This document shows positions 32,601 to 47,272 of a DNA stretch of 64,000 nt, in pieces. Each line of letters opens with the position of its first letter. Position 1 is the first letter of the stretch. Made by a program: the position numbers and the translations under genes. The stretch is from an uncultured Candidatus Saccharibacteria bacterium. Its GTDB lineage: Bacteria; Patescibacteriota; Minisyncoccia; UBA6257; 2-01-FULL-56-20. The stretch is taken from contig OZ246418.1 of the NCBI GenBank assembly GCA_965231155.1, positions 42,266 through 106,265 on the forward strand, written 5' to 3'. A model generated the notes under the pieces. It was not told the DNA's origin. It did not search any database and was given only the letters and a program-made list of their open reading frames with translations.

Positions 32601-34025
32601 TTAGATAGAAAGCCTTTTCGTGATGATTGTGCGTCGGAGAGCAAATGCCCGATGCACAATCTCAGCGCCAGATTCTGAAGCATCCCTCGCGTGAGGTTGG
32701 AGTGAGTAGCGTCCTCCTTCCGTTCCCGCGTTGTCGTTCTTCAGAACAACACCGAGCTGGACAAGTCGGAGAATGGTCTTCCGAGTCGGTTCCCGCTCTA
32801 AGCCATGAGCTGATGCCGCCTTCAAGAGATCTCGTTCCCCAATTCGACGCATCCCGACATATGGTTCGTGACGGCCGGGACGAAGAAGAATGAGAATGAT
32901 CTCCTTAGCTAGACCCTCATCAACATCCTCAGGCAAGAGGCCTGCGACATCAAAGAGATCGAAGATCCTTACCCGTTCTTCGGAAGAGTGGATGATTTCT
33001 TCGACTGCATCAGAATGAGGGAGTTCCTCCGGCATCTCGTCTGGCCAGACGAGACTTCTGGCATCGAGAATACGATGTCGAGCTTTCCGCAGTCGTCGCA
33101 TTGTATCTGGAAGATCAAGCTCTGCGATGTATCCACGGATTTGCTCCTCAGACTCCTCTGAGGGTGCAAGAAAGAGGAGTCTTCTCAATTCCTCGATGAT
33201 GCCCTCACACTCAGAGTGAATCTCCTCAGGAGTAATCTCTGGCGTAGGTTCGGGATGTGGGCAAGGAGGACCCGCGAAAGGAATCCTCTGTCTCTTTGGT
33301 CTTGGCAAAGAAGGCGAAGGTGGTCGATACACCTGTCGAGCTGGTTTTACAATTCGCCTCTGCTTTCTCCTCCTCACCATAATGAAACCGAGCACAGTGA
33401 GCGCCGACAGTCCGCCGGTCATTGAAGCAATGACAAACGGGAAATCGGTGATTAGTGGTTCGATCTTCGGAGTCAGGAGAGTCTGAATCTCCTCATCTCC
33501 AAGTTTCAGAATGGAAACAAGCTCAGAAACACCGACTGGCGTCTTCACGTATAAATTGAAGGCGACCTGATAGGATCTCTCTCCGTGATCATGGAGACCT
33601 GTTCGGTCGATATACTCCTTGCCTTCCGGAGACACTCGCCTGAAACCAAGGTAGGGGCTCCCGGGGGCGGTGGGTGGAAGCAGGACTTCGAACTGAATGT
33701 ATGCTTCCCGTTTCCGGAGCGTATCGCCCGAAGACCCTTCATTCAACCAGATGATATGCGCCAACCGAAGATCGAAAGAAGAGAGACTCACTCCTTGCGG
33801 AGCAGGCACTCGCTTCTCCTGCTGATCCTTGAGCTGTTTCTGATCTTCCTCGGGAACATTGTCTTCCAGCGTTCCCACCTCAGCAACAACTCTGAGTTTC
33901 CTCGCCTGCAAAACCTCCTCGAGACGAGAAAGATTTTCCAGAACCTTGACCTCTCCAGCTATCGCCCGGTTAGACCCCGCACAAAGGAGCCAGCCGAACA
34001 AAAAAGCTGAAACCAACCTTTTCAT
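32601..34025 (-). CDS. Secreted/membrane-anchored hypothetical protein, compositionally GC-rich
   Basis: Signal peptide MKRLVSAFLFGWLLCAGSNRAIAG, one internal TM, Arg/Pro/Glu-rich C-terminal half. Codon usage is visibly more GC-rich than neighbours. Confidence 0.4.
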   Translation of the reverse strand: MKRLVSAFLFGWLLCAGSNRAIAGEVKVLENLSRLEEVLQARKLRVVAEVGTLEDNVPEEDQKQLKDQQEKRVPAPQGVSLSSFDLRLAHIIWLNEGSSGDTLRKREAYIQFEVLLPPTAPGSPYLGFRRVSPEGKEYIDRTGLHDHGERSYQVAFNLYVKTPVGVSELVSILKLGDEEIQTLLTPKIEPLITDFPFVIASMTGGLSALTVLGFIMVRRRKQRRIVKPARQVYRPPSPSLPRPKRQRIPFAGPPCPHPEPTPEITPEEIHSECEGIIEELRRLLFLAPSEESEEQIRGYIAELDLPDTMRRLRKARHRILDARSLVWPDEMPEELPHSDAVEEIIHSSEERVRIFDLFDVAGLLPEDVDEGLAKEIILILLRPGRHEPYVGMRRIGERDLLKAASAHGLEREPTRKTILRLVQLGVVLKNDNAGTEGGRYSLQPHARDASESGAEIVHRAFALRRTIITKRLSI

Positions 34026-34195: not shown

Positions 34196-34266
34196 TGCCG
34201 GGTCGTCTAATGGTAGGACAACGGACTCTGAATCCGTTTATCTTGGTTCGAATCCAGGCCCGGCAG
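34196..34266 (+). tRNA. tRNA-Gln (anticodon CTG)
   Basis: Manual cloverleaf: acceptor TGCCGGG/CCCGGCA, D-arm GTCT-AATGGTA-GGAC, anticodon arm ACGGA-CTCTGAA-TCCGT (anticodon CTG), T-arm CTTGG-TTCGAAT-CCAGG, discriminator G. Confidence 0.8.
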
Positions 34267-34360
34267 CAGTCTAGTTTAGTATCGATGGACCAGGAGCTGT
34301 AATAAATGACACCCAATAACCTGGACGGGTTATTAAGAAAACTATACTCTTGTTCTCATA

Positions 34361-37300
34361 ATGTTTGACGCTTCTGACTTACAGCTTAATCCCAAAGAAA
34401 TAGATCCTCCCGGAAGTCCGGATAAGTTCGAAGCTTTCTGTTGCGCACTAGTACGAGAAGTCTGGAAGGATCCTACAGCTGGACGCATTGGACGATCAGG
34501 ACAGAAGCAGAACGGGCTCGATGTTATTGCCCGTTACAACATGGGAGCAGAATATTGGGGACTACAGAGCAAGAACAAGGATTCTTTAACAGGCTCCCTC
34601 TCAAGGAGCGATGTAGAAGTAGAAGTGGAAAAAGCTAAAGGATTCACACCCCCACTGAAATGTTTTTACATTGTAACCACTCTTCCACGAGATCAAGCCC
34701 TTCAAGCTATCGCACGAGATATTACATCTAAGAATCTTTCTCTTGGACTTTTTTCTGTACACTTTTGGTTTTGGGAAGATATTTGCGAGCACCTTCTCGA
34801 ACATCGAGAGCTTCTTTACATCTATTGGCCTCATTTACGTCCTGGGACACAAACTAATCCGAGCAGTGCTCCTTCTTCTATCAAGAAAGGTACCGAGAAG
34901 ATTCTTGAAGATGAGGCAAATCTTCGGGAAACCAATATCACGAACTCTGGAACTGGCACCATTAACATCGCCATCGGAGATGGCGGGACCGTTACTGTTA
35001 TCCCCGACGAAAAGAAAGAGATCCACGCCAAACTCGATATAATTCGAAATTACATCGATGAAAATATCCCCATAACAGCCCTGCGTGAATTGGAGCAGAT
35101 CAAAAAGGATCACTGGGTAACCGCAGATAGTATATTGAAATTCAGAATTCTAACTAACATTGCCGCTTCAGAATCGAAGGTAGGCAAAGAAAGTGACGCT
35201 GGGAAACATTTCATCGAAGCTCTTCAATACAATCCTAATGACGAAAAGGCTTTATGCAATGCGGCAACCGGTTATCTTATTCAAGAAGATAAAGAAGAAG
35301 CACGGAAATATATTCAGAAGGCATTGATGATAAACCCAGCTAGCGACCGTGCTTTTTCTTTAACGATTTACGCTGCGCCTACTGGTGCATTTATCGAAGA
35401 ACTTCAAAAGAATATCCCTTCGATAAACCTAAGGTCTGCCCCTGTTTCTTATGCCATTGGATTCGTCTTAAGAGCTAGGGGTGAACTTGAGGAATCAATC
35501 CCATGGTTCAGACAAGCAGCCGATATGGCACCTACGGATATAGAGATGAGCACTTCGTTAGCTGAGACATTACTTCAGACAATTATTGATGATCAGTCTG
35601 TTGTGTTCGGCCAACAATTGACTGAAAAAACACGAAACCTCTTAAACGAGATTGATGACATATTTAAGAAAGCGTGGAATACAGTGTCCAACAAAGAGAT
35701 AAAAGTATATAGAACAAGCTGGCTTTTGAATCGCAGTCTCGTAAATAAATTATTGAGCAACTACGATATTGCAATTCGGACAGTAGACGAGGCGCTTGAG
35801 TTAAGACCAGATGATCTGAGTGTGATTAAGCAAAAAGCGATTCTTCTCTTTGAAGGCGGAAGGAAAGATGAAGCTCTTGTGTTTATTAAGGATATAATCA
35901 AAGATACCTCAAAACCGGAGATGGTTATCCCGGCCGCTGCGCTCCTTGCAAGCACATCTCATTATGATGAGGCGCTCGAGATACTTAATAGTTTAAAAAA
36001 TAAAACTGACGACAAGAAAGCTATCGCCGAAGCAAACCGGATGCTCGTTGATTTACTAGGAGCGGTGGGCAAATTTGAGGATGCTAGAATCTTGTCTGAC
36101 CAAATAATGATTGCGGAACCTGATAATATTGGATATTACATTGATCGAGCGAATCTTCACTCAGCAATAAAAGATACGGACGGAGTCCAAAAATATATTG
36201 ACCAAGCAAAAATTCGGGCAAATGAAAGTTCTTCCAAAAGAGAGCTGATCGAACTAGCCAATGCCTTATATAAATTTGAGAAATTTGCTGATGCAAGTGA
36301 TATCTTCACTTTGGTTGCTGATAAAAACACAGACTCCGATCTCACGCGAAAGCTACTTAATAGTTATTACCGCGCCGGCAAACTGGGGGAAGCTCTGAAA
36401 GTGATCCAAGCTCTTAAGGCCGGAACTGTGTCTTCCAATAAATATCTTGTAGAAATGGAATCCTCAATTTATGAGGAGATTGGAAACTGGCAAAAGGCGA
36501 AAGAAATATGCCTCGAATTCTTCAAAAAGAATCCCGAAGACAACGAGATTAAGATTCGATATGCCGCTGCCTTATTGAGGAGTAGCACCACGGAAGACCT
36601 AAAAGAACTTGATGAACTACTCGACTCGGAAATTGATACTTCTGATTTCTCTTTTAATTTATGGATGCAACTGATAAATCTATATGAATTTCGGGGACGA
36701 GTAGGACGTGCGATTGCTTCAGCATATGAAGCCCGAAGAAAGTTCTTCAATATGCCCGAAGCACATATTCAATACGTTGGTGTTTTTTTCCGGCGCGAGA
36801 AAGTCCTCGACCCAGAGCTTAACTGTTTGGAAGCACAGGAGAATTCAGCGATCCTTTTGGGAGATGGCTTATCCAACGACTGGTTTATACTTGAAAAACG
36901 AAAAGATTCTGACTTAAATAAAAAAGAAATAAATCCCGATCATCCTCTATTTTCTCTTTTACTTGGGAAGAAGACTGGTGATGAAATTATTGTGCAAAAC
37001 ACGGGACCAATCCCTGACAAGAGAAAGATACAAGAGATTAAACATAAATTTGTTTATGCCCTGCACGATAGTTTAAATAATTTCAGTTCTAGATTCCCTA
37101 CGGCTGGTGGTCTTTGGGGTATTAAAGTAGGCACTACAACAGACTCCTCTGAGGGAGAGGCGCCTAACGGGATAAAGCTAATACTTGATCAAGTTTCTAA
37201 GCATGACAATTTCATCCATAAGGTAGAGGATTATTACAATAAGGGTCGGCTCACTCTTGGGGCATTCGGCAAGTTAATTGGGAAAGATGTATTGACTGTC

Positions 37301-38335
37301 TGGGGCGGTATCATTTCTTCTCAAGGCTCTGGAATCCAAGCTTCTCTTGGAACTCCTCAAGAACTTAAAGAAAGCACCCTACTCCTAAGACGCGTCCCTC
37401 CATTGAAACTAGTTATTGATCCTGTTTCTATTATGACAATTCACGGTATGGGAATGGCCGATAGTCTGATAAAGATATTTGGACGACCGATAGTTACTTC
37501 CTCAACAGTTGATCTCATTCGAGTTGCTATTGCAGAGAAAGGAGGTCTCGGCTCAGACGGCTATATGAGCATCGCTAAGGAAGGAGACAAGTTCGTTAGA
37601 AACGAAGTTACTCCTGAGCAAATGACAAAACATATTCAGTATCTCGATTCGATTGCGAAATGGATTGAGAATAATTGCGACATACTTCCTTGTGAACCCG
37701 CTCTCTCTATAGACAGAGATATCCGAAAAAAGAACGAAGAGATTCTAGGCAGAGAATCCTATGAAACAATATTACTTGCGGCTCAACCTGGAAACCTTTT
37801 ATATTCTGACGATGAACGACTTCGCGCGCTCGCTCGGAATGACTACAATTGTACTCCTGGTGTTTGGACTCAACTCTTGATGATGGAGATGCGAGAGAAG
37901 AATGTCATTACAAAAGAAGCGTACGCACAAGCTATTCTTAAACTACTCAACTCTAAATATCGACACACAAGTGTTAGCAAGGAAGTGATGGTAGAAGCAG
38001 CAATTCAGGCCTCATGGAAGATCCGGGAGCCACTCACAAGCGTCCTCGCAAAACTTAAAGAAGGAGATGCTGATACCAAATCAGCCGCGGCAGTAAGCGC
38101 AGAGTTTCTTTTAGAGATTTGGAATAAAGAAAATGCTATGTCTCCCGAAGAGAAGGAAAATATGACGAGTTATCTAGCTGGAGTTCTGGTAGAGAATCGG
38201 TCGTTCACAGATGTGCTCTTCCAATTGAGAGCCGAGCTTGCACGAGTTTTCAAGAGTAATTCTCTTGAAAAAGAAGAGGTGATGTCGGCATTACGTGCTT
38301 GGGCCAAAGAGAGCGGTATCACTTACGAAATTTAG
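34361..38335 (+). CDS. Giant multi-domain protein: N-terminal Mrr-cat-like (PD-D/ExK) nuclease domain, central TPR array, C-terminal alpha/beta domain of unknown function (possibly PIN-like)
   Basis: N-terminus FEAFCCALVREVW...GRSGQKQNGLDVIA...EYWGLQSKNK matches Mrr_cat pattern (FE..L...G....RSG..DgGiDvia....vQcK). More than 12 TPR-like helical repeats in residues 230-760. C-terminal LKLVIDPVSI...LYSDDERL is suggestive of a PIN-like acidic pattern. No Walker A found. Confidence 0.55.
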   Translation: MFDASDLQLNPKEIDPPGSPDKFEAFCCALVREVWKDPTAGRIGRSGQKQNGLDVIARYNMGAEYWGLQSKNKDSLTGSLSRSDVEVEVEKAKGFTPPLKCFYIVTTLPRDQALQAIARDITSKNLSLGLFSVHFWFWEDICEHLLEHRELLYIYWPHLRPGTQTNPSSAPSSIKKGTEKILEDEANLRETNITNSGTGTINIAIGDGGTVTVIPDEKKEIHAKLDIIRNYIDENIPITALRELEQIKKDHWVTADSILKFRILTNIAASESKVGKESDAGKHFIEALQYNPNDEKALCNAATGYLIQEDKEEARKYIQKALMINPASDRAFSLTIYAAPTGAFIEELQKNIPSINLRSAPVSYAIGFVLRARGELEESIPWFRQAADMAPTDIEMSTSLAETLLQTIIDDQSVVFGQQLTEKTRNLLNEIDDIFKKAWNTVSNKEIKVYRTSWLLNRSLVNKLLSNYDIAIRTVDEALELRPDDLSVIKQKAILLFEGGRKDEALVFIKDIIKDTSKPEMVIPAAALLASTSHYDEALEILNSLKNKTDDKKAIAEANRMLVDLLGAVGKFEDARILSDQIMIAEPDNIGYYIDRANLHSAIKDTDGVQKYIDQAKIRANESSSKRELIELANALYKFEKFADASDIFTLVADKNTDSDLTRKLLNSYYRAGKLGEALKVIQALKAGTVSSNKYLVEMESSIYEEIGNWQKAKEICLEFFKKNPEDNEIKIRYAAALLRSSTTEDLKELDELLDSEIDTSDFSFNLWMQLINLYEFRGRVGRAIASAYEARRKFFNMPEAHIQYVGVFFRREKVLDPELNCLEAQENSAILLGDGLSNDWFILEKRKDSDLNKKEINPDHPLFSLLLGKKTGDEIIVQNTGPIPDKRKIQEIKHKFVYALHDSLNNFSSRFPTAGGLWGIKVGTTTDSSEGEAPNGIKLILDQVSKHDNFIHKVEDYYNKGRLTLGAFGKLIGKDVLTVWGGIISSQGSGIQASLGTPQELKESTLLLRRVPPLKLVIDPVSIMTIHGMGMADSLIKIFGRPIVTSSTVDLIRVAIAEKGGLGSDGYMSIAKEGDKFVRNEVTPEQMTKHIQYLDSIAKWIENNCDILPCEPALSIDRDIRKKNEEILGRESYETILLAAQPGNLLYSDDERLRALARNDYNCTPGVWTQLLMMEMREKNVITKEAYAQAILKLLNSKYRHTSVSKEVMVEAAIQASWKIREPLTSVLAKLKEGDADTKSAAAVSAEFLLEIWNKENAMSPEEKENMTSYLAGVLVENRSFTDVLFQLRAELARVFKSNSLEKEEVMSALRAWAKESGITYEI

Positions 38336-38340
38336 ATTCA

Positions 38341-39627
38341 CTATTCTAGGGTTAACTTCTTGTCTATTAAGATCAACTTACTTCTAAATGATTGCATCAA
38401 CTCTCGCTTCTCTTCTAAGATTCCATCTTTAAGTAGGTATTTCGCATACGATCGCAAGTCAGTTTTGTTTTGCTCTAACCTTTCTTTCTCGTCTAGGCCA
38501 AGCACCTTATTTCGAAAGTGACCGAACCGCTCCATCTCTTTTTCCAACTTCTGTCTTATGCCAATAGAATTGAGATCAATTTTATCCATAAGCTCCAAGA
38601 GTTGGGCAATTAAGACTTTTTCTTCAATATATCCGCCCTTGCAATTTCTATCTTTGAACCGAGTACAGCCATAATAGATATATTTTGCTATTGTTCCATC
38701 TTTAAGATTCTTATACTTCTCCTCTGCCGATATCCCCGAACCACAAAGCCCGCAGGACATAAGACGAGTGAATGCAAACTCTCCATGCTTTGTCCTGACT
38801 TTCCGCTGAAGCTGCAATTGCTTCTGTGTTGAGTCAAATAGTTCTTTTGTAATAATCGGAATGTGTTTTCCTTGAAACCATCTTCCACTCCCCCGAGGAT
38901 ATTCGTATCTTCCGTAGTAGAAAGTATTGTTAAAAAGAATGTACACATTACTCAACGTAAATGGTTTCCCATTTCTTGATACAAATTTTATTTCACGAAG
39001 CCATTCGTAAACTTTTCTGCCGCTCCAACCCGTTAAAGCAACTTTCTCGAACATTTCTTTTACAATAGGAGCGCGCTCAGGATCAATGAAAATATGGCCC
39101 TTCTCGTCGACATTTTTTGAATTCAGATAGCCAGTAGGCGCTACCGATGGCCAAAGCCCCATCTCGCACTTGGTTTTCAATCCCCTTTTTACATTTATGC
39201 TCTTATTGTCATTCTCTAGTTTTGCCTGGGAGCCAAGAATCATGAGGAGAAATTTCTCATTAGGATTATCAGTGAACCTCTGACTGTAAGTCTTGATCTC
39301 AACTAGTTTCTTTTGATCAAAGAGGTCAACAATTGCTCCGAGATCGCCTGCGTTGCGACTCAGTCGATCTGGATGCCAGACTAGGATACCATTGAACTTA
39401 TCCTCCCGAATGTCGTTAAGAAGCTTGTTGAATACTGGACGTTGTCCACAGTCTTTAGCTGAGTGTGATTCTCTGTAAATATCAGTAACGTTCAGATTGT
39501 CTCGCTGCGCCACCAACAACATCTCCTTTGTTTGAGAGTCTATCGAAAGAGCCTGCTTCTCCTCTGCTTCGCTAGATTTCCTCGCATAGAGGCAGTAACG
39601 GACCTCCTGAGCTATTTCTGTATCCAT
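38341..39627 (-). CDS. Large serine recombinase (resolvase N-domain + recombinase domain + zinc ribbon)
   Basis: YCLYARKSSEAEEKQALSIDSQ catalytic Ser region, then recombinase domain and C-terminal CGLCG...C..C zinc ribbon. 428 aa. Confidence 0.85.
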   Translation of the reverse strand: MDTEIAQEVRYCLYARKSSEAEEKQALSIDSQTKEMLLVAQRDNLNVTDIYRESHSAKDCGQRPVFNKLLNDIREDKFNGILVWHPDRLSRNAGDLGAIVDLFDQKKLVEIKTYSQRFTDNPNEKFLLMILGSQAKLENDNKSINVKRGLKTKCEMGLWPSVAPTGYLNSKNVDEKGHIFIDPERAPIVKEMFEKVALTGWSGRKVYEWLREIKFVSRNGKPFTLSNVYILFNNTFYYGRYEYPRGSGRWFQGKHIPIITKELFDSTQKQLQLQRKVRTKHGEFAFTRLMSCGLCGSGISAEEKYKNLKDGTIAKYIYYGCTRFKDRNCKGGYIEEKVLIAQLLELMDKIDLNSIGIRQKLEKEMERFGHFRNKVLGLDEKERLEQNKTDLRSYAKYLLKDGILEEKRELMQSFRSKLILIDKKLTLE

Positions 39628-39669
39628 ACCCCAATGGATGACGCAGACCTCCGAGGAAGTCCAGGGCTC

Positions 39670-40344
39670 TCAAGAACCCTTTATCAGCCTCACTAATTCG
39701 GCAAACTGATTTGCTCCAATATTTCCTTCGCTAATATATGGCTTTTGAGGATTGCATGTGGCGTATGGAATCTTGGTTAAAAAAGGAACAGCTTCTCTCC
39801 AAATCCGTTCACCGCGCATAACGATGACGACTGGGTTTCTTTTTAAGGCATTCCCAACAAGATGCACCGAGTAACGCTGCGAGGGTAGTAGCTCTCCTTT
39901 CCATTGATACTTAACCGAGTGATAAGGAAAGTACTCAACGCAAAATATCTTTTTGGATAGCTCTTCCCACCCTACATTCACTGCACGCATGAGCGGCCCA
40001 ACCCTTCCTTTCCACCACTCATGCCCGGCTTGCGATACCTCAGCGAGTGCCGGGTTGAAGGGATAAAAAGGATAGTCATCAAACTGATGTAAGAAGTTTG
40101 ATCGAGCAATACTACTGAATAATTCACAGGCTTTTTCTGACCCAGTTTCTAATCCATATCCAGGATTGAGGTTAAGGAGAATAATTGGCGCGTCTGGATT
40201 ACCGACATAAGGAGATGGCAGCTGATCTAATAATATCTTCCCTTTGGGATCACGACATCGATCATTGAAGACTTCGATTGCCTTTTCATCTTCAGAAAAG
40301 ATAAATGGCGGAACTGTAGGCAGATGCGTCCAAGGATTTCTCAT
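39670..40344 (-). CDS. Hypothetical protein (weak uracil-DNA-glycosylase-superfamily-like N-terminal motif)
   Basis: PYVGNPDAPIILLNLNPGYG loosely resembles UDG family motif A. Otherwise ORFan. Confidence 0.35.
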   Translation of the reverse strand: MRNPWTHLPTVPPFIFSEDEKAIEVFNDRCRDPKGKILLDQLPSPYVGNPDAPIILLNLNPGYGLETGSEKACELFSSIARSNFLHQFDDYPFYPFNPALAEVSQAGHEWWKGRVGPLMRAVNVGWEELSKKIFCVEYFPYHSVKYQWKGELLPSQRYSVHLVGNALKRNPVVIVMRGERIWREAVPFLTKIPYATCNPQKPYISEGNIGANQFAELVRLIKGS

Positions 40345-40365
40345 AGCCCGAGGGGATAGGAGTCG

Positions 40366-41178
40366 CTACTCCCCAAATCCATTTTCGACCTTTTCAATAA
40401 ACCCTTCCTTTATAAATGTTTTTCCAGACTCTACCCCAATGCCACTTAGTTTATAGTGGAATTCTCCGAATCCAGGCACGCGATTACAATACTGTCTCTC
40501 CCCTTTTTTAAGATTGTAGAGAGAATGAGATGAAGCTCTTAGTGGGTCATCGAACTCAAAAAGAAAGTTATGAGTCATCAGCCTCCAAAGAGTCCCATTT
40601 TCACTAATACTGAATTCGATATTCTTAATATCCTCAGTCCCATCGTTAAAAAGTTCGAGCATCTTATAACTACGATTAAGACCAAATCTAACATCCACAC
40701 TCGGAATCCGATCGAATTGCAATCCCGCCGTAATAGCTGGAAAATCAGGGTGAATCTGGGAGTGTTTCATAAATAACGGAGCTAACACTTGAGCGGTTAA
40801 AGTCCCCGAGCTCCACTTGTACGAAGCGGCTTCTTCTCGAATAAGATCAATGACCTCAACCGGCAAATCATCTGGAGTGATGAACATCCACTCCTTAATT
40901 CGTAGGCCAATCTTTTTTTGACTTATAGCTTCAGCTAGCTTGCCGATATCTTCTCTTATTTTATTCCGATACTGAGAAAGTTCTTTACGCTCGGGATACA
41001 TCGGACAGTAAACTGCGCAAACAATCTGCTCATTTTTAATGTAACCGTCCACTCCCGAATCATGCCACTCTTTAAGACTTTGAAAGTTCTTTCCGTACTC
41101 AGCTCCTAAGACAGTATTTACCAATCTTTTAAACTCAATCGGATCTTCTATTTTCCGGATACGTGCGTATATATTCAT
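40366..41178 (-). CDS. Hypothetical protein with Mrr-cat-like N-terminal segment
   Basis: EFKRLVNTVLGAEYGKNF...HDSGVDGYI resembles restriction-endonuclease-like core (FE..l...G....DgGiDg). Remainder unknown. Confidence 0.35.
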   Translation of the reverse strand: MNIYARIRKIEDPIEFKRLVNTVLGAEYGKNFQSLKEWHDSGVDGYIKNEQIVCAVYCPMYPERKELSQYRNKIREDIGKLAEAISQKKIGLRIKEWMFITPDDLPVEVIDLIREEAASYKWSSGTLTAQVLAPLFMKHSQIHPDFPAITAGLQFDRIPSVDVRFGLNRSYKMLELFNDGTEDIKNIEFSISENGTLWRLMTHNFLFEFDDPLRASSHSLYNLKKGERQYCNRVPGFGEFHYKLSGIGVESGKTFIKEGFIEKVENGFGE

Positions 41179-41339
41179 AGGTTGGAGTGATTATATTCCT
41201 ACCCCATCTCAATATCCAGTTGAAAGACTGGACGAAGAGCTGTCGACAACTCCCCCTTCGCAAGGTCCCAGATCTAAGCTAGGAATGGACAAGAAAGGTC
41301 GAAAATCGGTACAATTCCTTTACAACTAAATAGCCGTAA

Positions 41340-41545
41340 GGCAGAGACCTAAACCCTCGGAGCAATCCGGCGGCATGGTCTACGAAGTCCCTTGGAAGAC
41401 ACTGAACCCCGCGTTCAGCGACTCTTCCAAGGGCCATACTGGGAAACTGGTATGGGGTCGTAAGACCTAGCTGATGCGGGGTTTAGTGTTTCTCCACCCC
41501 GCAAGACATAAACCACCTCTGTCGGGGTGAATACTATTTATTAAT
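41340..41545. ncRNA. Candidate structured non-coding RNA (nested hairpins, two GNRA tetraloops), strand undetermined
   Basis: Perfect 11-bp stem CCCTTGGAAGA...TCTTCCAAGGG enclosing inner 6-bp stem CTGAAC/GTTCAG (41389-41433); CCATACTGG-GAAA-CTGGTATGG (41434-41456); GGTC-GTAA-GACC; GCGGGGT...ACCCCGC. No ORF of at least 60 aa in a 370-bp gap between divergent genes. Confidence 0.3.
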
Positions 41546-41548
41546 TTT

Positions 41549-42229
41549 ATGCGTCTCATCTACGAAGAACCGCAGTCCATGGGAGGAGTTCTCAAAATCT
41601 ACGAGGACAAGATCGTCTACAAATCCGCCTATCTCAACCCAGAACAAACAATCCTTACCAAGCAAATTGTTTCCGTAAATCTTTCTGCTTTGCTACCTCA
41701 AGTGATTTTGGAAATGACGGGTAATCAGAAAGTTTCCATCACCACTAGCGACAAAGAAAAGATCCGAGAAACTATTCTGGATGTCATTAGTGGGACCGCC
41801 AAACCCCACCACGCAGAAGAAGTTTCTCCAGTCAGTGAACCAGAGCAACAGGAAGAAAAACCAGAACATGATGCTACCAAGAAGAAATGGGCGATATTTG
41901 GATTTGTCATTATCCTCATATGCGTAGTCGGAATATTCACAAGCGGGAGTAATTCATCACTAGTCTCTTCACTTCAAGGGAATAGATTTATGGCCGCCGC
42001 CGAAGCCGAGGGCTACGCCAAAGATCTACTTCGAAAAGAAGGATACTTAAATATAAAGCTTGGATCTTTCCCGACGATTAACGAGAATCCAGAAAAGACC
42101 ACATTCTATATCGAAAATACCTTCTCGGCAGAGATCTATGCCCGAGGTATACAAGGGACTTATGTAGCCATCGTTTCCTTCGCCCATGGTTCATATGAAG
42201 TAACAGATATCGCTTTCGAGAGAGACTAA
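41549..42229 (+). CDS. Single-pass membrane protein, unknown (N-terminal PH-like beta region, acidic linker, TM, C-terminal domain)
   Basis: TM segment WAIFGFVIILICVVGIF. No catalytic motif. Confidence 0.4.
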   Translation: MRLIYEEPQSMGGVLKIYEDKIVYKSAYLNPEQTILTKQIVSVNLSALLPQVILEMTGNQKVSITTSDKEKIRETILDVISGTAKPHHAEEVSPVSEPEQQEEKPEHDATKKKWAIFGFVIILICVVGIFTSGSNSSLVSSLQGNRFMAAAEAEGYAKDLLRKEGYLNIKLGSFPTINENPEKTTFYIENTFSAEIYARGIQGTYVAIVSFAHGSYEVTDIAFERD

Positions 42230-42233
42230 TTTC

Positions 42234-42620
42234 TTAAGAGATTGGAGGATCATCTCTATCCTTATCCAGTCGCGCCACATCTTCGAGAAGTTTCTTGAAC
42301 AATTCAGTTGCCTCTCTCATCTGCGAATTATTTTCCTCCCGGGATCTCATGTAGCGAGGATGGTTGTTATCGAGATAATACTTCGTCGCGGGAAAACTCC
42401 CTTTTTGAGCCATGACTAAGAGATTCCCTTCCATGAGATCGTTCTTATTATCCCTGCCACGTCCTAGGGCCTTGCCCATCTCCCTATCAAATCGAGAATC
42501 CCCATCTCTCCATCGGTAAATATGCGCTCGCGAGATACCGGCACGCTTCGAAGCAATACTGATATTGGCAGTTTCCTCTAGGACCTCCAGAAACTTCTTT
42601 TTATCCGCATGGCTTTTCAT
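42234..42620 (-). CDS. HTH protein resembling phage terminase small subunit
   Basis: SIASKRAGISRAHIYRWRDGD helix-turn-helix. Size, basic charge and position directly downstream of a ParB-methylase are typical of phage packaging modules. Confidence 0.4.
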   Translation of the reverse strand: MKSHADKKKFLEVLEETANISIASKRAGISRAHIYRWRDGDSRFDREMGKALGRGRDNKNDLMEGNLLVMAQKGSFPATKYYLDNNHPRYMRSREENNSQMREATELFKKLLEDVARLDKDRDDPPIS

Positions 42621-43956
42621 CTATTTTTACCGCTTTTTCTCCCGTTAGTTTTTCCCATCTTTTCTTGATCACCTCGGCGTAGATTGGCTGCTTCTCCATG
42701 AGATAGCATCGTCGCTTCATCCGGGTGGCGGCAATAAGCGTACTGCCACTTCCTCCAAAGGGTTCAACGATCAGATCGCCACGCTTGGTAAGGACTTTGA
42801 TGTAGGGAATAAGAATCTCCAATGGCTTTGTCCCGAATATAATCCCCTGTCCCGAGCTTTTCTCATCTGATGCCTTGTACCCTATGAAATCAGTTGGCTG
42901 GATCTTCTTCCCATGTTCGTAGCCTTCCCACTGGGGCTTCCCGGAGATGGCATAGAGGGCCGTTTCATATTCTTCTTGGAGGAGCTGATCTTCTGGTTCC
43001 ATGTGCATGTTCTCTTTGTCTTCTGAACTTCCAACCATAGCGATATCGTGCTTAGAGAAGAACTTGTACTTGGCCGCGAACCCTTGGGTACGGTTAGGTA
43101 GGTGCCACACGATCATGTTTTTGACCTTCCAGTACTTTTCCATCTCACCCCAGATGATCCGGAGATTCTTCCAATTCTCGTAGACAATGATGTGGAAGTT
43201 CGGCTTGGCAATCTCGGCGATGTTCGCCATCCAGAGTTCAGTGAAGTTGGATGGCAAGGTATCGGTGCCAATATATCTACGATCACGCTTCAAGCCAAAG
43301 CCTTCGATTGCTTCACCATGCTTCTTCTTGCCCTTCAGATAGTCGAGAATGTACGGTGGGTCAGTGAAACACATGTCGGCTCGTTCCTCCCCCATGAGCT
43401 TCAAGACGTCATCTCTCTCCATACTGTCCCCGCACATGAGACGCGAACCGCCAAGATCATAAACATCACCAAGCTTGGTCTCGATACTGTTGATATCCAA
43501 CTTCTCTAGTTCTTTCTGGATATCAAAGACTTCTGGCGTTTCTTCTTCCGGAAAGATGTCATCTAACTCTTCACTTGAGAAACCAATGTCCTTCAGTAAC
43601 GACTCATCGAACTCGGCCAACAAGGAGAGGTCGAACTCTCCGGTATTCTTGTTGAGCCGGATGATCAACTCTTCTTCTTTCTTCAGATCAGCAATGTGGA
43701 CATAAACGACGGGGATCTCCTCGAGGCCCATCGACTTCGCAACCTCGAAACGGAAGTTGCCGCCCACGATCACCCCCTCCCGACCCTCGGCCGAGTTGAC
43801 GATCAAAGGATCAACTAACCCATGCTGCTCGATACTTTCCCTCAACTGCGCCGTGGCCTCCTTAGACCAGACTCGTGGATTCCGTTCCGGATGTCGAAGG
43901 GACGACAAGGGAACATAACTAACCTGCAGCTTATCGCTGCTTTGTGTTGTGTACAT
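42601..43956 (-). CDS. ParB-like nuclease domain fused to beta-class N4/N6 DNA methyltransferase
   Basis: N-terminal ParB/Srx motif (GGNFRFEVAKSMG); MTase motif IV FTDPPY precedes motif I VEPFGGSGST (beta-class order). Confidence 0.8.
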   Translation of the reverse strand: MYTTQSSDKLQVSYVPLSSLRHPERNPRVWSKEATAQLRESIEQHGLVDPLIVNSAEGREGVIVGGNFRFEVAKSMGLEEIPVVYVHIADLKKEEELIIRLNKNTGEFDLSLLAEFDESLLKDIGFSSEELDDIFPEEETPEVFDIQKELEKLDINSIETKLGDVYDLGGSRLMCGDSMERDDVLKLMGEERADMCFTDPPYILDYLKGKKKHGEAIEGFGLKRDRRYIGTDTLPSNFTELWMANIAEIAKPNFHIIVYENWKNLRIIWGEMEKYWKVKNMIVWHLPNRTQGFAAKYKFFSKHDIAMVGSSEDKENMHMEPEDQLLQEEYETALYAISGKPQWEGYEHGKKIQPTDFIGYKASDEKSSGQGIIFGTKPLEILIPYIKVLTKRGDLIVEPFGGSGSTLIAATRMKRRCYLMEKQPIYAEVIKKRWEKLTGEKAVKIDEKPCG

Positions 43957-44297
43957 AAGTTTATATGAACTATTACTTTTTTCCGACAGATATCTACAAC
44001 TGAAAGAACAACCTAGACACCATTTTCAATTTTTTAATTAGCAACCTACCAACGAAGATGTCCGCAATGTAAAAAAGCATTACCAGACATAAATTTTCCA
44101 TTTTCCATATTTATTTTGTCTGTACAATGCTCCTTTACGCTGCAGGCATATAAAGAAGCTATCTCGCGTGCTCTTCCGATAAGGAAGCGCTCTATGATTC
44201 ACGTTACTTTTATTCGACCTTTAGGGTTATTATAGTGTGCTAGATAGTTCTGGCAAGTGCTATTGTGCACAACTCTCCCCCGTGATACTCTTATCCC

Positions 44298-44639
44298 ATG
44301 AAGCTTTCTGAGCTTACCGCTAAGATACGGAGTCTTCCGGCCAAACAACAAGTTGGCTTATGGGTCATCCTCAATAAATTCCACAAAGAAAAGGGAACTT
44401 GGTTTACGACGGGCGACTTCTCTCTAGAAATGCAGAACTACCTCACTCCCGATGATCCTAATCGGTTAGCCAGGATTATGGGTGGCATTATGAGTAGCTT
44501 GTTAAGAAACGGAGTTATTGAACAATTCACCGGCGGACAGAAACCAGTCTGGACGGTCTCCCCTCAAATCCATAAGTATGCAAAAGAAATAAAAGATTCT
44601 ATCTTCCCTGTAATCACCTACTGGGAAGAAGGACGGTAG
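44298..44639 (+). CDS. Hypothetical protein
   Basis: 113-aa ORF after an AT-rich 340-bp gap. No motif. Confidence 0.3.
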   Translation: MKLSELTAKIRSLPAKQQVGLWVILNKFHKEKGTWFTTGDFSLEMQNYLTPDDPNRLARIMGGIMSSLLRNGVIEQFTGGQKPVWTVSPQIHKYAKEIKDSIFPVITYWEEGR

Positions 44640-44643
44640 ATTC

Positions 44644-45117
44644 TTACCAAACTTTCTTACTGGCTAGCTTCGGAAACGCTAACGTGAAGAGTCCCAGTAA
44701 GACGCTGGTAATTAAAAAATAAAACAAGAAAGACGGTAGGATCATTATGATCCATATCGAATTAACGTAGGCGGCGGTGTTCACCTGAAGTGAAAACTGA
44801 GACATCGGTATTGGGCCCTTCGCAACTAGCGTAAATAACGTCGGGATACAAAAACTTGCAATCCCAAGAAGCAATAACCAATTCAGTGTCTGTAAAACCA
44901 ACTTAAGTGGTGGAAGCAACTTCACTATCTGGAAGCAAACATAACTCCCAATATAGAATCCGATTAATGGAGAAAATATAAACGCATTCTTCTTTTCTTC
45001 TGGAGAACCTCCGACGATATCGAAATAAGTGAGCATGAGGACTGCAAAAAACATCGCGATAGTCAGTGAAACCTCGAATCGCTTTTCCACGCCTTCGGTG
45101 AGCTCTTTCGTAGACAT
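44644..45117 (-). CDS. Membrane protein, unknown
   Basis: Four hydrophobic helices. Start set at MSTKEL to avoid overlap. Confidence 0.35.
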   Translation of the reverse strand: MSTKELTEGVEKRFEVSLTIAMFFAVLMLTYFDIVGGSPEEKKNAFIFSPLIGFYIGSYVCFQIVKLLPPLKLVLQTLNWLLLLGIASFCIPTLFTLVAKGPIPMSQFSLQVNTAAYVNSIWIIMILPSFLFYFLITSVLLGLFTLAFPKLASKKVW

Positions 45118-45131
45118 CAAAGTGTTGGATG

Positions 45132-45332
45132 CTAGAACCACCGTTTCACCCCCTTGTGATGAGAACAAGTTCCTTGGCGAGTTTTACTCGTGCTGTACGT
45201 TCCATCTTTACACTGGGCGGTAATACGCGGCTGTTTATATACGGGAATGGAAGTCTTAGCCTGCACCGGAGAGGAAGCTGCTGGGATTAAGAGCATGCCA
45301 AGTGCCATGCCGAAAAACAACTTATTCTTCAT
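45132..45332 (-). CDS. Small secreted DUF3761-like protein
   Basis: Signal peptide, then CKDGTYSTSKTRQGTCSHHKGVKRW, matching the DUF3761 C-DG-YS-S...GTCS-HGGV-W pattern. Confidence 0.55.
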   Translation of the reverse strand: MKNKLFFGMALGMLLIPAASSPVQAKTSIPVYKQPRITAQCKDGTYSTSKTRQGTCSHHKGVKRWF

Positions 45333-46025: not shown

Positions 46026-46046
46026 AACTTGCGGAACCGAGAGTGA

Positions 46047-47264: not shown

Positions 47265-47272
47265 AGCCTCGA

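What the first reader, a model, noticed from the sequence alone, without database searches (positions are those of the whole stretch)
34196..44000. tRNA-Gln-adjacent integrated element with serine recombinase, phage packaging/methylase remnants and several ORFans
Immediately 3' of tRNA-Gln lie a 4-kb giant-protein gene, a large serine recombinase (convergent), two ORFans, a structured RNA-like gap, a membrane protein, a terminase-small-like HTH gene and a ParB-MTase fusion, a combination typical of phages. This looks like a degraded prophage or phage-inducible island carrying cargo. Its cargo genes are the most likely place for a new defence or anti-defence function.
Basis: partly seen in the sequence, partly recalled or inferred. 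Interest (0 to 1): 0.65.

Follow-up and report, generated by a model that had tools for sequence, protein, structure and literature searches.

The report
Phage-derived defence island at tRNA-Gln
A mobile island of about 10 kb sits at the very end of a tRNA-Gln gene in a tiny-genome (Patescibacteria/CPR) bacterium; it was inserted by a serine recombinase, is a stripped-down relative of temperate phages, and carries several anti-phage genes plus a structured RNA (LOOT) that the papers I could search describe only as metagenome-derived.

Summary
Confirmed. Directly 3' of tRNA-Gln(CTG) lies an integrated element of about 10 kb (34268 to about 44268) in a Patescibacteria (CPR) genome. Its 428-aa large serine recombinase belongs to a CPR-wide clade whose genes almost always lie beside the 3' end of a tRNA gene. 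A conserved element end (AGTCTAGTTTAGTATCGATGGACC) abuts tRNA-Gln in about 30 loci. The same end also occurs joined to non-tRNA DNA (attP-like forms). Two relatives have tRNA-Gln without it.

The backbone is a ParB-methylase, a TerS-like HTH protein and the recombinase. Relatives share it and also encode a large terminase. The window's element lacks terminase, structural, lysis and replication genes. It belongs to a separate terminase-less lineage, so it is a prophage-derived island and possibly a satellite.

The cargo looks like defence:
- a 1324-aa Mrr-nuclease/TPR/GreA/B-C/PIN ('TGP') protein;
- a Brig1-related UDG-fold glycosylase and a restriction-endonuclease-fold protein (the two 'ORFans');
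- a single-pass membrane protein.

The 'structured gap' is LOOT RNA (Rfam RF03000). Here it is a promoter-proximal leader of variable membrane or exclusion genes. The right boundary is uncertain (44.25-45.4 kb). Every part is of a known kind; the combination and the LOOT context appear new.

The parts
34196..34267 (+). tRNA-Gln (anticodon CTG); the integration target. The gene is left intact.
   Evidence: ARAGORN; Rfam tRNA 63.1 bits.
34268..34305 (.). Left junction (attL) and conserved element end (P' arm): AGTCTAGTTTAGTATCGATGGACC...
   Evidence: The same roughly 35 nt follow tRNA-Gln genes of differing sequence in L001-L008, L011 and L047 and in about 19 metagenome loci. In about 8 metagenome loci they follow non-tRNA DNA.
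34361..38335 (+). Cargo 1: a 1324-aa 'TGP' protein with four parts: N-terminal Mrr-like PD-(D/E)xK nuclease (about aa 15-160), TPR array (about 240-760), GreA/B-C-like region (about 885-927, weak) and PIN domain (1018-1159).
   Evidence: PF20698 PIN-TPR-GreABC 8e-31 plus many TPR families. GreA_GreB E=0.14. The N-terminal domain has 2960 cluster representatives; 10 of 14 aligned homologues hit Mrr_cat_2 (best 3e-6), and D54, Q69 and K71 are conserved.
38341..39627 (-). Large serine recombinase (integrase), 428 aa, apparently intact.
   Evidence: Pfam Resolvase, Recombinase and Zn_ribbon_recom. phrog_95 integrase 4e-68. Sequence match to SPbeta SprA/YokA and TP901-1 integrase structures. 47 related loci, nearly all from Patescibacteria MAGs.
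39670..40344 (-). Cargo 2: a 224-aa DNA glycosylase of the UDG superfamily fold, distantly related to Brig1.
40366..41178 (-). Cargo 3: a 270-aa protein with an N-terminal restriction-endonuclease-like fold and a C-terminal beta-sandwich.
41286..41345 (+). Promoter-like site (TGGACA-18-TACAAT) and putative transcript start ACAACTAAATAG, upstream of LOOT.
   Evidence: Consensus scan. The -10 box followed by ACAAYTnAATA, and an upstream TAAGCTAGG box, recur in most of 25 LOOT loci.
41346..41470 (+). LOOT RNA (Rfam RF03000).
   Evidence: 77.5 bits against a gathering score of 46.4. My own covariance model scores 99 bits. In the 14 instances from recombinase loci, 97.9% of cells are paired and 24 of 27 pairs show compensatory changes.
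41471..41510 (+). Conserved block 3' of the Rfam LOOT model (consensus YTGGCGGGGAGCTTTnTG; here GCGGGGTTTAGTG). It can form a hairpin.
   Evidence: Present in 23 aligned instances. Its role was not determined.
41549..42229 (+). Cargo 4: a 226-aa single-pass membrane protein read from the LOOT leader. Probable moron or exclusion-type gene.
   Evidence: No Pfam family. Weak phrog_14275 hit. The genes at this position in L054 and L026 match Sie-like phrog_8545 at 2.6e-24 and 2.2e-16. Proteins at this position elsewhere are variable, and several of those inspected have one hydrophobic span.
42234..42620 (-). 128-aa HTH protein, TerS-like. Member of the terminase-less clade.
   Evidence: phrog_4044 terminase small subunit 2.6e-7. 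Homologues lie between the ParB-methylase and TerL in relatives. NJ tree separates the terminase-less elements.
42601..43956 (-). ParB_N-N6/N4 DNA methyltransferase fusion, 451 aa. The DPPY and FGGSGST motifs are present.
   Evidence: Pfam; phrog_498 6.5e-78; motifs read from the translation.
43957..44256 (-). Near-consensus promoter (TTGCCA-16-TATAAT, 44256-44229) and a leader of about 270 nt for the ParB-methylase operon. This is the best-conserved DNA of the locus.
   Evidence: Promoter scan 11/12. 92-97% identity to L128, against 64-75% for housekeeping flanks. Fold z-score -2.66 on the - strand.
44244..44297 (.). Probable right junction (attR). Positions 44270-44297 (CAACTC..GTGATA..TTATCCC) are homologous to the DNA directly 3' of tRNA-Gln in relatives that lack the element end.
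   Evidence: The exact crossover was not resolved.
44298..45168 (.). Two small genes of uncertain membership: o113 (44298-44639 +) and the membrane protein m174 (44644-45168 -). They may be flank or part of the island complex.
   Evidence: They are co-conserved with the ParB-methylase as one block of 85-97% identity between the window and L128. The block ends at 45117.

Best explanation
The region is an integrated mobile element of about 10 kb with temperate-phage ancestry. A large serine recombinase (LSR) placed it at the extreme 3' end of tRNA-Gln in a Patescibacteria genome, and it now serves mainly as a carrier of anti-phage genes.

Mechanism, with shown and inferred steps marked:
1. Shown: the junction lies immediately after the tRNA, so the tRNA is not disrupted and no long direct repeat is formed.
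2. Inferred: the LSR pairs an attB site, made of the last bases of the tRNA plus downstream DNA, with an attP site whose P' arm is AGTCTAGTTTAGTATCGATGGACC. It exchanges strands at a short core in or next to ...GCAGCAG.
3. Shown: the element keeps a phage packaging-initiation module (ParB-methylase and a TerS-like HTH protein, behind a strong promoter and long leader). It has no large terminase, capsid, tail, lysis or replication genes, so it cannot form particles on its own.
4. Shown: variable cargo sits in three slots, and their contents differ between related elements. The slots are between att and the recombinase gene, between the recombinase gene and LOOT, and downstream of LOOT.
5. Inferred from family membership:
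   - The Brig1-like glycosylase removes modified bases from phage DNA.
   - The endonuclease-fold protein cuts DNA.
   - The membrane protein acts in exclusion.
6. Position shown, function inferred: LOOT is the structured 5' leader of the transcript that expresses the variable membrane gene.
For: **LSR identity**
- Domain, PHROG and structure-sequence matches.

**Clade-wide tRNA adjacency**
- In most of the 47 genomic relatives that have enough sequence, a tRNA lies on the opposite strand just past the recombinase stop codon.
- Eight of the nine loci with recombinases at least 67% identical to the window's have tRNA-Gln there; the ninth has tRNA-Ser. More distant loci have Ser, Trp, Lys, Met, Pro or Asn.

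**Precise junction**
- The conserved element end begins right after tRNA-Gln, although the tRNAs differ in sequence.
- The same holds for a tRNA-Ser subgroup that has its own conserved end.

**Other forms of the site**
- A scan for the P' arm found 29 metagenome loci. About 19 are tRNA-joined and about 8 are joined to non-tRNA DNA.
- Four of the non-tRNA loci share an arm that I read as an imperfect inverted repeat of P'.
- L122 has such a site followed by a cargo gene and the recombinase.
- L058 (DnaX 97% identical) and L055 (81%) have tRNA-Gln followed by CAACTCGTGATAGG...TTATCCC rather than the element end.
- Homologous sequence lies at window 44270-44297.

**Phage ancestry**
- The order ParB-methylase, HTH, TerL, recombinase is seen in L009, L014, L021, L032, L035, L037, L038, L052, L053, L076, L085-L089.
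- More distant phage contigs continue from TerL into long same-strand gene runs, which I did not annotate (L090, L091, L093).

**Cargo**
- Identities.
- Turnover in the same slots: a 1189-aa helicase-nuclease, a 308-aa protein and a Sie-like protein in L054; type I or type II restriction-modification genes and DGR genes elsewhere.
Against: - No excision junction or empty site was found for this very strain. All contigs carrying its flank genes also carry the element, or break inside the tRNA, which is probably only a k-mer branching effect.
- The right end is not pinned down. The block from the ParB-methylase through the intergenic region, o113 and m174 is conserved as one unit across the proposed attR.
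- The proposed P arm matches no other locus.
- Within the 10 kb visible on either side of the terminase-bearing relatives I found no capsid or portal genes. 'Prophage' ancestry therefore rests on the packaging genes, PHROG matches, IMG/VR membership and more distant phages.
- All defence roles are inferred from homology or fold. None of the four cargo proteins reaches a curated family threshold, apart from the PIN domain of the TGP protein.
Confidence: 0.8

Rival explanations
1. The element is an active helper-dependent phage satellite, like a PICI or tycheposon, rather than a decayed prophage. It keeps the integrase, a TerS-like protein and the ParB-methylase so that it can be excised and packaged by a helper phage that supplies TerL and the capsid.
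For: - The terminase-less layout recurs in unrelated hosts and in viral contigs: window, L003, L026, L045, L066, L070, L073.
- The HTH proteins of those elements form their own clade, apart from the HTH proteins of TerL-bearing elements. The compact form is therefore inherited, not the result of repeated decay.
- There is no room for a lost TerL: only 4 nt separate the HTH gene from the converging membrane gene.
- The recombinase, HTH protein and methylase are intact.
- The size of about 10 kb is typical of satellites.
- PICI-like tRNA-targeting elements with terS, a minority of which use an LSR, are documented.
Against: - No replication module, repressor or excisionase-like (RDF) gene was recognised.
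- No helper phage was identified.
- The NJ tree has no support values, and some 'TerL-less' labels may only reflect the ends of loci.
- The ParB-methylase is split into two ORFs in the sister element L054, which suggests decay there.
Confidence: 0.3
2. The element is a 'grounded' remnant. It no longer moves, is inherited vertically, and is kept only because its cargo is useful. Variation arises by homologous recombination between relatives.
For: - The same tRNA-Gln site is occupied in a genome whose DnaX is 84% identical (L054/L128), and part of the element is about as diverged as the host flanks: 71% nt for the recombinase and glycosylase region against 64-75% for the flanks.
- The pattern is mosaic. 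Recombinase 58% aa and HTH 52% aa, against methylase 87%, o113 93% and the intergenic region 97%. This implies module exchange that could have left mismatched att arms.
- L047 shows a fully decayed copy, with only a recombinase fragment left.
Against: - The recombinase ORF is intact and full length.
- The P' arm is identical to the family consensus.
- attP-like forms of close relatives exist in metagenomes.
Confidence: 0.35
3. The locus is a composite hotspot. The LSR element (34268 to about 44268) sits next to the remains of a second inserted unit that begins at CAACTC... (44270) and includes o113 and m174, perhaps extending to about 45430. The genes from m197 to DUF218 are a further variable stretch before host synteny resumes at o108.
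For: - CAACTC..GTGATA..TTATCCC directly follows tRNA-Gln in L058 and L055, as the end of an inserted unit would.
- o113 and m174 are 88-93% identical between the window and L128, well above housekeeping levels. The shared block ends at gene borders, as phage mosaic modules do.
- Between m174 and o108 the two genomes carry different genes.
Against: - No second recombinase or phage gene lies to the right of 44270.
- The blastp link between m174 and element-borne membrane proteins (cluster c16) was not reproduced by tblastn and may be compositional.
- o113 has no detectable relatives in the loci examined.
Confidence: 0.3
4. The region is ordinary, conserved chromosomal DNA that happens to lie next to a tRNA. 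The recombinase is a stray gene.
For: Base composition does not differ from the rest of the window, and there are no direct repeats.
Against: - The element end is conserved across hosts.
- Occupancy differs between relatives.
- The tRNA linkage holds across the recombinase clade.
- The backbone is phage-derived.
Confidence: 0.02

Closest known systems
Temperate phages and islands integrated by large serine recombinases (SPbeta SprA, TP901-1, A118, phiC31 types)
   Same: - Three-domain LSR, with sequence matches to the SprA/YokA and TP901-1 integrase structures.
- No long direct repeats at the ends.
- The integrase gene lies next to one end of the element.
   Different: - The target is the extreme 3' end of a tRNA gene and leaves the gene intact. 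From my own knowledge, the classic LSR phages insert inside protein-coding genes.
- No recombination directionality factor was recognised.
- The host is a Patescibacteria bacterium.
Serine-recombinase genomic islands at the ssrA (tmRNA) 3' end in Dehalococcoides (recalled from McMurdie et al. 2011; not re-read here)
   Same: A serine recombinase targets the 3' end of a small stable-RNA gene, and the islands carry variable cargo.
   Different: - The recombinase clade and host phylum differ.
- As I recall, those islands leave about 20-bp direct repeats of the ssrA end. Here the window shows no repeat of the tRNA end.
- The cargo here is defence genes, not dehalogenases.
Tycheposons and PICI-like satellites (bioRxiv 10.1101/2020.12.28.424599); defence hotspots in P4-like satellites and P2 prophages (from my own knowledge)
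   Same: - Small elements inserted at tRNA genes with site-specific integrases.
- Some carry a terS-type packaging gene but no capsid or terminase large subunit.
- Conserved core genes frame slots with fast-changing cargo.
   Different: - 910 of 937 tycheposon-type elements use tyrosine recombinases; here the integrase is an LSR.
- No replication genes are recognisable here.
- Helper dependence has not been shown.
TGP (TPR-GreA/B-C-PIN) conflict proteins; Bab/Agp anti-phage system of E. coli ECOR25 (bioRxiv 10.1101/2024.11.07.622273)
   Same: - TPR array followed by the family-specific PIN domain (PF20698, 8e-31).
- A weak GreA/B C-terminal match lies between them.
- Carried in a prophage-like island.
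- N-terminal fusion to a defence-type domain, as that paper describes for the family.
   Different: - I did not look for an N-terminal BASS11 amyloid motif. No small ORF of at least 60 aa adjoins the gene.
- The N-terminal module is instead an Mrr-like nuclease.
- Activity is untested.
Brig1 anti-phage DNA glycosylase (NCBIfam NF047634)
   Same: - 45 of 46 family members match the Brig1 model.
- Single-gene cargo in a mobile element.
   Different: - Scores 35 bits against a cut-off of 230, so it is a distant relative and not an equivalog.
- Substrate and catalytic residues are unknown.
LOOT RNA (Rfam RF03000)
   Same: Full-length match above the gathering score, with strong covariation.
   Different: - The Rfam 14 paper lists LOOT only among metagenome-based RNAs, and I found no paper on its function.
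- Here it has a defined context: behind a conserved promoter, pointing away from the LSR gene, with an extra conserved 3' block, leading into a variable membrane or exclusion gene in elements mostly from Patescibacteria MAGs and in IMG/VR viral contigs.

Membership tests
Large serine recombinase (integrase) | N-terminal resolvase catalytic domain, then recombinase domain, then zinc-ribbon domain | tested here: met
   PF00239 2.2e-24 (aa 13-157), PF07508 2.5e-17 (183-272), PF13408 4.2e-6 (286-346). phmmer matches SprA/YokA over aa 18-397.
Large serine recombinase (integrase) | Recombination between attP and attB at a 2-bp core, without long direct repeats | tested here: inconclusive
   No direct repeat of the tRNA end is present. 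attL is defined to within a few nt. The attR crossover is not resolved. No biochemistry was possible.
Integrated mobile element | Presence/absence or alternative occupancy at the same site in relatives | tested here: met
   L058 and L055 have tRNA-Gln without the element end. L054/L128 has a mosaic relative with different cargo.
Integrated mobile element | The same element end occurs in different hosts and in an unintegrated (attP) context | tested here: met
   The P' arm follows tRNA-Gln genes of differing sequence. About 8 metagenome loci have it joined to non-tRNA DNA, and L122 has cargo and the recombinase beside such a site.
Complete prophage | Terminase large subunit, portal, capsid, tail, lysis and replication genes | tested here: not met
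   None was found between 34268 and 45170 with Pfam, PHROGs or NCBIfam. TerL is present in relatives but absent here.
Phage satellite (PICI-like) | Integrase, a packaging-redirection gene (such as terS) and a small size | tested here: met
   LSR, TerS-like HTH protein (phrog_4044, 2.6e-7) and about 10 kb. The terminase-less elements form a separate HTH clade.
Phage satellite (PICI-like) | Own replication module and repressor; induction and packaging by a helper phage | tested here: not met
   No primase, helicase, Rep or repressor family was detected. Helper dependence cannot be tested with these tools.
TGP (TPR-GreA/B-C-PIN) system | TPR repeats and the family-specific PIN domain | tested here: met
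   PF20698 at 107.6 bits against a cut-off of 27.8; many TPR families above their cut-offs.
TGP (TPR-GreA/B-C-PIN) system | GreA/B C-terminal (RNA-polymerase-binding) domain between the TPR array and the PIN domain | tested here: inconclusive
   PF01272 scores only E=0.14, 12.6 bits, at about aa 885-927.
Brig1 DNA glycosylase | Score above the NCBIfam equivalog cut-off | tested here: not met
   35.2 bits against a cut-off of 230. I therefore treat it as a distant relative only.
UDG superfamily | UDG alpha/beta fold | tested here: met
   [not shown]
Lamassu (LmuA effector) | LmuA together with the SMC-like LmuB (and LmuC) partner genes | tested here: not met
   The only signal is a 29-bit partial LmuA hit on the 270-aa protein. 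No SMC-like gene is in the element. The similarity reflects a shared endonuclease fold.
PD-(D/E)xK restriction-endonuclease fold (270-aa protein) | Core fold and catalytic D...(D/E)xK residues | tested here: inconclusive
   [not shown]
LOOT RNA (RF03000) | Score above the Rfam gathering threshold, with the consensus structure | tested here: met
   77.5 bits against 46.4, model positions 1-121. Covariation in related loci.

The most novel reading that the evidence does not exclude
The window's element may represent a previously unrecognised family of phage satellites, found mostly in Patescibacteria MAGs. In this reading, the terminase-less lineage integrates at tRNA 3' ends with a dedicated clade of serine integrases. 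It is packaged with the help of its ParB-methylase and TerS-like module by terminase-bearing relatives, and it acts as an exchangeable platform for defence genes. In the same reading, LOOT RNA is the family's regulatory leader. Candidate roles are an immunity RNA, an antitermination RNA or a translational-control RNA, by analogy (recalled, not tested) with P4 CI, P1 c4 or HK022 put. It would control the exclusion or moron operon that faces away from the integrase gene.
Probability: 0.2. Interest if true: 0.7.

Novelty: new variant of a known kind. Interest (0 to 1): 0.5.

Why it matters
- **Defence in minimal genomes.** Patescibacteria have very small genomes; the source contig here is about 0.8 Mb. 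According to the abstract of one paper I saw (PMC6509639), they rarely encode CRISPR-Cas, and how they resist phages is an open question. This locus devotes about 1.2% of that contig to one island with three or four candidate anti-phage genes.
- **A place to look for more.** The same slots in related elements hold restriction-modification systems, diversity-generating retroelement (DGR) genes and large helicase-nucleases. The slots are a defined place to search for defence genes in this phylum.
- **New integrases.** The recombinase clade offers serine integrases with short, well-defined targets at tRNA ends. Different members target at least seven tRNA species.
- **A context for LOOT.** LOOT RNA gains a genomic context in elements mostly from Patescibacteria MAGs and in IMG/VR viral contigs, with a conserved promoter and downstream genes. 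This makes its function testable.

Tried and rejected
- **Direct or inverted repeats as att sites.** None involves the tRNA region. Scans for a copy of the tRNA 3' half or an inverted copy of the P' arm found nothing.
- **Similarity to catalogued phages.** Megablast of the region found no match.
- **Left-flank gene as a probe for empty sites in JGI metagenomes.** No relatives were found. I used DnaX instead.
- **Contig breaks at the tRNA as evidence of polymorphism.** Logan contigs break at about 34227-34232 from both sides in several samples. This is most simply explained by k-mer branching at a conserved tRNA, so I do not count it.
- **Crossover at GGCA-AG (44252-57).** The resemblance of 'GGCAAG' to the tRNA end lost weight once that sequence proved to be the -35 box (TTGCCA) of a near-consensus promoter on the other strand.
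- **Finding the window's P arm elsewhere.** No match in any fetched locus.
- **m174 as an element gene.** The blastp cluster c16 was not reproduced by tblastn, so I dropped it as evidence.
- **o113 against the 113-aa gene upstream of the methylase in L026.** No similarity.
- **Homology between the TGP N-terminal nuclease and the 270-aa protein.** hhalign probability 0.3%.
- **Sequence searches of PDB.** The two small cargo proteins, their profiles and the TGP N-terminal profile gave nothing. Fold comparison was needed.
- **Capsid or portal genes upstream of the methylase in terminase-bearing relatives.** I found methylase, endonuclease and unknown proteins instead.
- **Pairing between the LOOT 'CCUAAACC' internal loop and the conserved 3' block.** Complementary in the window, but by eye it does not co-vary across loci. 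I did not pursue it.
- **Co-occurrence of the glycosylase and 270-aa families.** Homologues elsewhere are not adjacent to each other, so I do not treat them as a two-gene system.

Full report
**Observation**

ARAGORN and Rfam place a tRNA-Gln(CTG) at 34196-34267.
- a 1324-aa ORF (34361-38335, +);
- a converging 428-aa large serine recombinase (38341-39627, -) with Resolvase, Recombinase and Zn-ribbon domains;
- two ORFs with no Pfam family (39670-40344 and 40366-41178, -);
- a 370-nt gap;
- a 226-aa ORF with one hydrophobic span (41549-42229, +);
- a 128-aa HTH protein (42234-42620, -) that matches PHROG terminase small subunits;
- a ParB_N + N6/N4 methylase fusion (42601-43956, -).

To the left lie housekeeping genes: a D-Ala-D-Ala carboxypeptidase, ScpB, ScpA and DnaX. 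GC content does not mark the region.

**Host and recombinase clade**

A scan of species-representative genomes with the recombinase returned 47 loci, nearly all from Patescibacteria (CPR) MAGs, at 44-74% identity. The identical DnaX protein sits on an 808-kb NCBI contig.

In most loci with enough sequence, a tRNA gene lies on the opposite strand just beyond the recombinase stop codon. Of the nine loci with recombinases at least 67% identical to the window's, eight have tRNA-Gln there (one has tRNA-Ser). More distant loci have tRNA-Ser, Trp, Lys, Met, Pro or Asn. The spacing from the recombinase stop to the tRNA ranges from about 140 nt to several kb.

**Left junction**

I aligned tRNA-Gln plus 130 nt from 14 loci. 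The tRNAs differ from one another, for example in the acceptor stem. Yet about 35 nt directly after the tRNA are nearly identical in the window, L001-L008, L011 and L047: AGTCTAGTTTAGTATCGATGGACCTAGAGGGGTCA. This is the element's end.

A tRNA-Ser subgroup has its own conserved end of about 115 nt, starting at the same place relative to the tRNA.

An exact-pattern scan of metagenomes for the end found 29 loci:
- In about 19, tRNA-Gln precedes it.
- In about 8 (L099, L111, L112, L117, L119, L121, L122, L125), non-tRNA DNA precedes it.
- In four of those the preceding DNA is ...GTTCCAACATCGTACCAGACGGCCAGCAGTC or a close variant. I read this arm as an imperfect inverted repeat of the P' arm, as expected of an attP site.
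- In L122 such a site is followed by a cargo gene and the recombinase, and preceded by a run of small same-strand genes.

The window has no direct repeat of the tRNA end. That fits a serine recombinase.

**Occupancy in relatives**

I fetched genome contexts through DnaX homologues:
- L058 (DnaX 97% identical) and L055 (81%) have tRNA-Gln followed by CAACTCGTGATAGG...TTATCCC, not by the element end.
- L054/L128 (84%) has a related element at the same tRNA, with different cargo:
  - a 1189-aa AAA_11/AAA_12/MTES_1575 helicase in place of the 1324-aa protein;
  - a 308-aa protein in place of the 270-aa one;
  - a Sie-like OB-fold protein in place of the 226-aa one;
  - a split ParB/methylase.

**Right boundary**

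Window 44270-44297 (CAACTCTCCCCCGTGATACTCTTATCCC) is homologous to the DNA that follows tRNA-Gln in L058 and L055. It shares three ordered blocks of 6, 6 and 7 nt. My rough estimate of the chance expectation in a 340-nt region is about 1e-7. This places attR at about 44244-44270, just outside the -35 box of a near-consensus promoter (TTGCCA-16-TATAAT, 44256-44229, - strand) that would drive the ParB-methylase operon through a leader of about 270 nt.

The rest of the L054 contig (L128) complicates this. The stretch from the ParB-methylase through the intergenic region, o113 and m174 (42567-45117) forms one block:

| Segment | Identity, window vs L128 |
|---|---|
| ParB-methylase | 87% aa |
| Intergenic region | 92-97% nt |
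| o113 | 93% aa |
| m174 | 88% aa |
| Housekeeping flanks | 64-75% nt |
| Recombinase | 58% aa |
| HTH protein | 52% aa |

There are two readings. A recombination tract may span attR. Alternatively, o113 and m174 belong to the island complex. Host-level synteny resumes only at o108 (47917-48243). I report 34268 to about 44268 as the recombinase element and 44298-45168 as of uncertain membership.

**Backbone and ancestry**

A tblastn search and gene clustering of the loci show a recurrent order: ParB-methylase (often with a second methylase), HTH, a roughly 500-aa protein, recombinase, tRNA. The roughly 500-aa protein is a large terminase (phrog_38, 1.8e-65). The HTH protein is thus a TerS-like partner. 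More distant IMG/VR contigs continue from TerL into long same-strand gene runs (L090, L091, L093), which I did not annotate.

The window's element has no TerL and no room for one. It also has no structural, lysis or replication genes.

The terminase-less layout recurs in L003, L026, L045, L066, L070 and L073. In a neighbour-joining tree their HTH proteins, together with the window's, form a clade separate from the terminase-bearing elements. The compact form is therefore a lineage and not repeated accidental decay. This keeps a satellite-like lifestyle in play. Against it, no replication or regulatory module was recognised.

**Cargo**

1. *The 1324-aa protein.* It carries the PIN domain specific to TPR-GreA/B-C-PIN ('TGP') proteins (PF20698, 8e-31), a long TPR array and a weak GreA/B C-terminal match (E=0.14).
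   - Its first roughly 160 residues form a module found in 2960 cluster representatives, many of them about 1300 aa long.
   - Ten of 14 aligned homologues match Mrr_cat_2 (best 3e-6), and D54, Q69 and K71 are conserved. The protein is thus an Mrr-nuclease-TGP fusion.
   - According to the Bab/Agp preprint, TGP proteins were predicted by Kaur and colleagues to be conflict systems, and one of them (Agp, with Bab) protects E. coli from T5.
2. *The 224-aa protein.* It belongs to a 52-cluster family.
   - 45 of 46 members match the Brig1 anti-phage glycosylase model, all far below the family cut-off.
3. *The 270-aa protein.* It belongs to a 33-cluster family.
   - The weak PADLOC LmuA hit reflects that fold, not a Lamassu system.
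4. *The 226-aa membrane protein.* It sits where L054 and L026 have Sie-like proteins (phrog_8545).

The two small cargo families are not linked elsewhere.

Related elements carry other genes in the same slots:
- type I restriction-modification genes with an AAA ATPase and an M48 peptidase;
- a type II methylase with an endonuclease;
- diversity-generating retroelement (DGR) reverse transcriptase with Avd.

**The structured gap**

The gap holds a full-length LOOT RNA (RF03000, 77.5 bits). The Rfam 14 paper describes LOOT only as a metagenome-based RNA, and I found no paper on its function.

- A covariance model built from six instances found LOOT in 13 of the loci fetched with the recombinase (12 genomic, one weak and truncated) and in L054.
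- A pattern scan of IMG/VR followed by the model found 12 more.
- Structure support is strong: 97.9% of cells are paired, 24 of 27 pairs show compensatory changes, and slid controls give 32-43%.

The layout is constant: recombinase gene on one strand; LOOT on the other, pointing away from it; then, 45-90 nt after LOOT in most instances, a variable ORF that converges on the (TerL)-HTH-methylase operon. Several of the downstream proteins I inspected have a single hydrophobic span.

Upstream of LOOT lies a conserved promoter: a -10 box, then 7-8 nt, then ACAAYTnAATA, with a further TAAGCTAGG box upstream. In the window this is TGGACA-18-TACAAT at 41286-41315. Downstream of the Rfam model lies a conserved block, YTGGCGGGGAGCTTTnTG.

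LOOT therefore looks like the 5' leader of a moron or exclusion transcript and not a free-standing gene. What it does is unknown.

**Assessment**

Each component is of a known kind, so this is a new variant and not a new category.

These points appear to be new, judged against the papers I could search:
- a Patescibacteria-centred clade of serine integrases that target the extreme 3' ends of tRNA genes;
- a heritable terminase-less element type with three cargo slots;
- a genomic context for LOOT RNA.

Three things remain unresolved: the exact right end, whether the element still moves, and all biochemical functions.

Noticed in passing
window 41286-41548; L003, L005, L008, L009, L010, L014, L017, L020, L021, L023, L024, L026, L054, L065-L087 (LOOT coordinates): LOOT RNA has a conserved promoter (-10 box, then 7-8 nt, then ACAAYTnAATA; upstream TAAGCTAGG box). 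It also has a conserved 3' block (YTGGCGGGGAGCTTTnTG) outside the Rfam model. The block contains a GGAG-like motif 4 nt before an A/G/T-TG triplet in all but one instance, so it could be a ribosome site plus the start of a tiny leader ORF, or a protein or RNA binding site.
   Followed up: partly
window 43957-44297: The 340-nt non-coding stretch between the ParB-methylase and o113 is 92-97% identical to L128, while neighbouring coding DNA is 70-90% identical and housekeeping genes 64-75%. It holds a near-consensus promoter on the - strand and a long imperfect hairpin (fold z-score -2.66). Only two sequences are available, so covariation could not be tested.
   Followed up: partly
L058 4700-5103; L055 19835-20172: In two relatives, an 82-85-aa GIY-YIG ORF lies immediately 5' of tRNA-Gln. 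In L058 it is preceded by an interrupted copy of the tRNA 5' end (TTGCCGGATCG, then 39 nt, then GTCTAATGGTA). This looks like a small homing-endonuclease-type insertion beside the same tRNA.
   Followed up: no
L047 10001-12136: This locus has a full tRNA-Gln, a spacer of about 45 nt, a duplicated roughly 23-nt tRNA 3' end, and then the conserved element end. Only a roughly 130-nt fragment of the recombinase gene is left. It appears to be a decayed, perhaps tandem, insertion.
   Followed up: partly
L002, L003, L004, L006, L023, L024, L010, L016, L017, L020, L021, L053, L054, L116, L124: The cargo slots of related elements hold type I restriction-modification genes with an AAA ATPase and an M48 peptidase, a type II methylase with an endonuclease, DGR reverse transcriptase with Avd, a 1189-aa AAA_11/AAA_12/MTES_1575 helicase, and unannotated proteins of 760-1600 aa.
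   Followed up: partly
window 32601-34025: The 474-aa ORF 5' of the tRNA has no Pfam family and lies in the highest-GC kilobase of this part of the window (0.53). It is absent from L058 and L054 and has only a 30%-identical homologue in L055. The 5' side of the tRNA is therefore also variable.
   Followed up: partly
window 45432-47914, compared with L128 2869-5195: Between m174 and the conserved o108 gene, the window has a 197-aa membrane protein, an MFS transporter and a DUF218 protein. The relative has four different genes there (an AAA_18 protein and proteins of 219, 221 and 79 aa). The variable zone next to tRNA-Gln therefore extends to about 47.9 kb.
   Followed up: no
L101, L106, L107, L108, L110: Some metagenome loci have tRNA-Gln followed by the same conserved element end, but no recombinase gene in the sequence available beyond it (up to about 12 kb in L107). 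Runs of small same-strand genes follow instead. Either the recombinase lies farther away in those elements, or a different element type shares this end.
   Followed up: no
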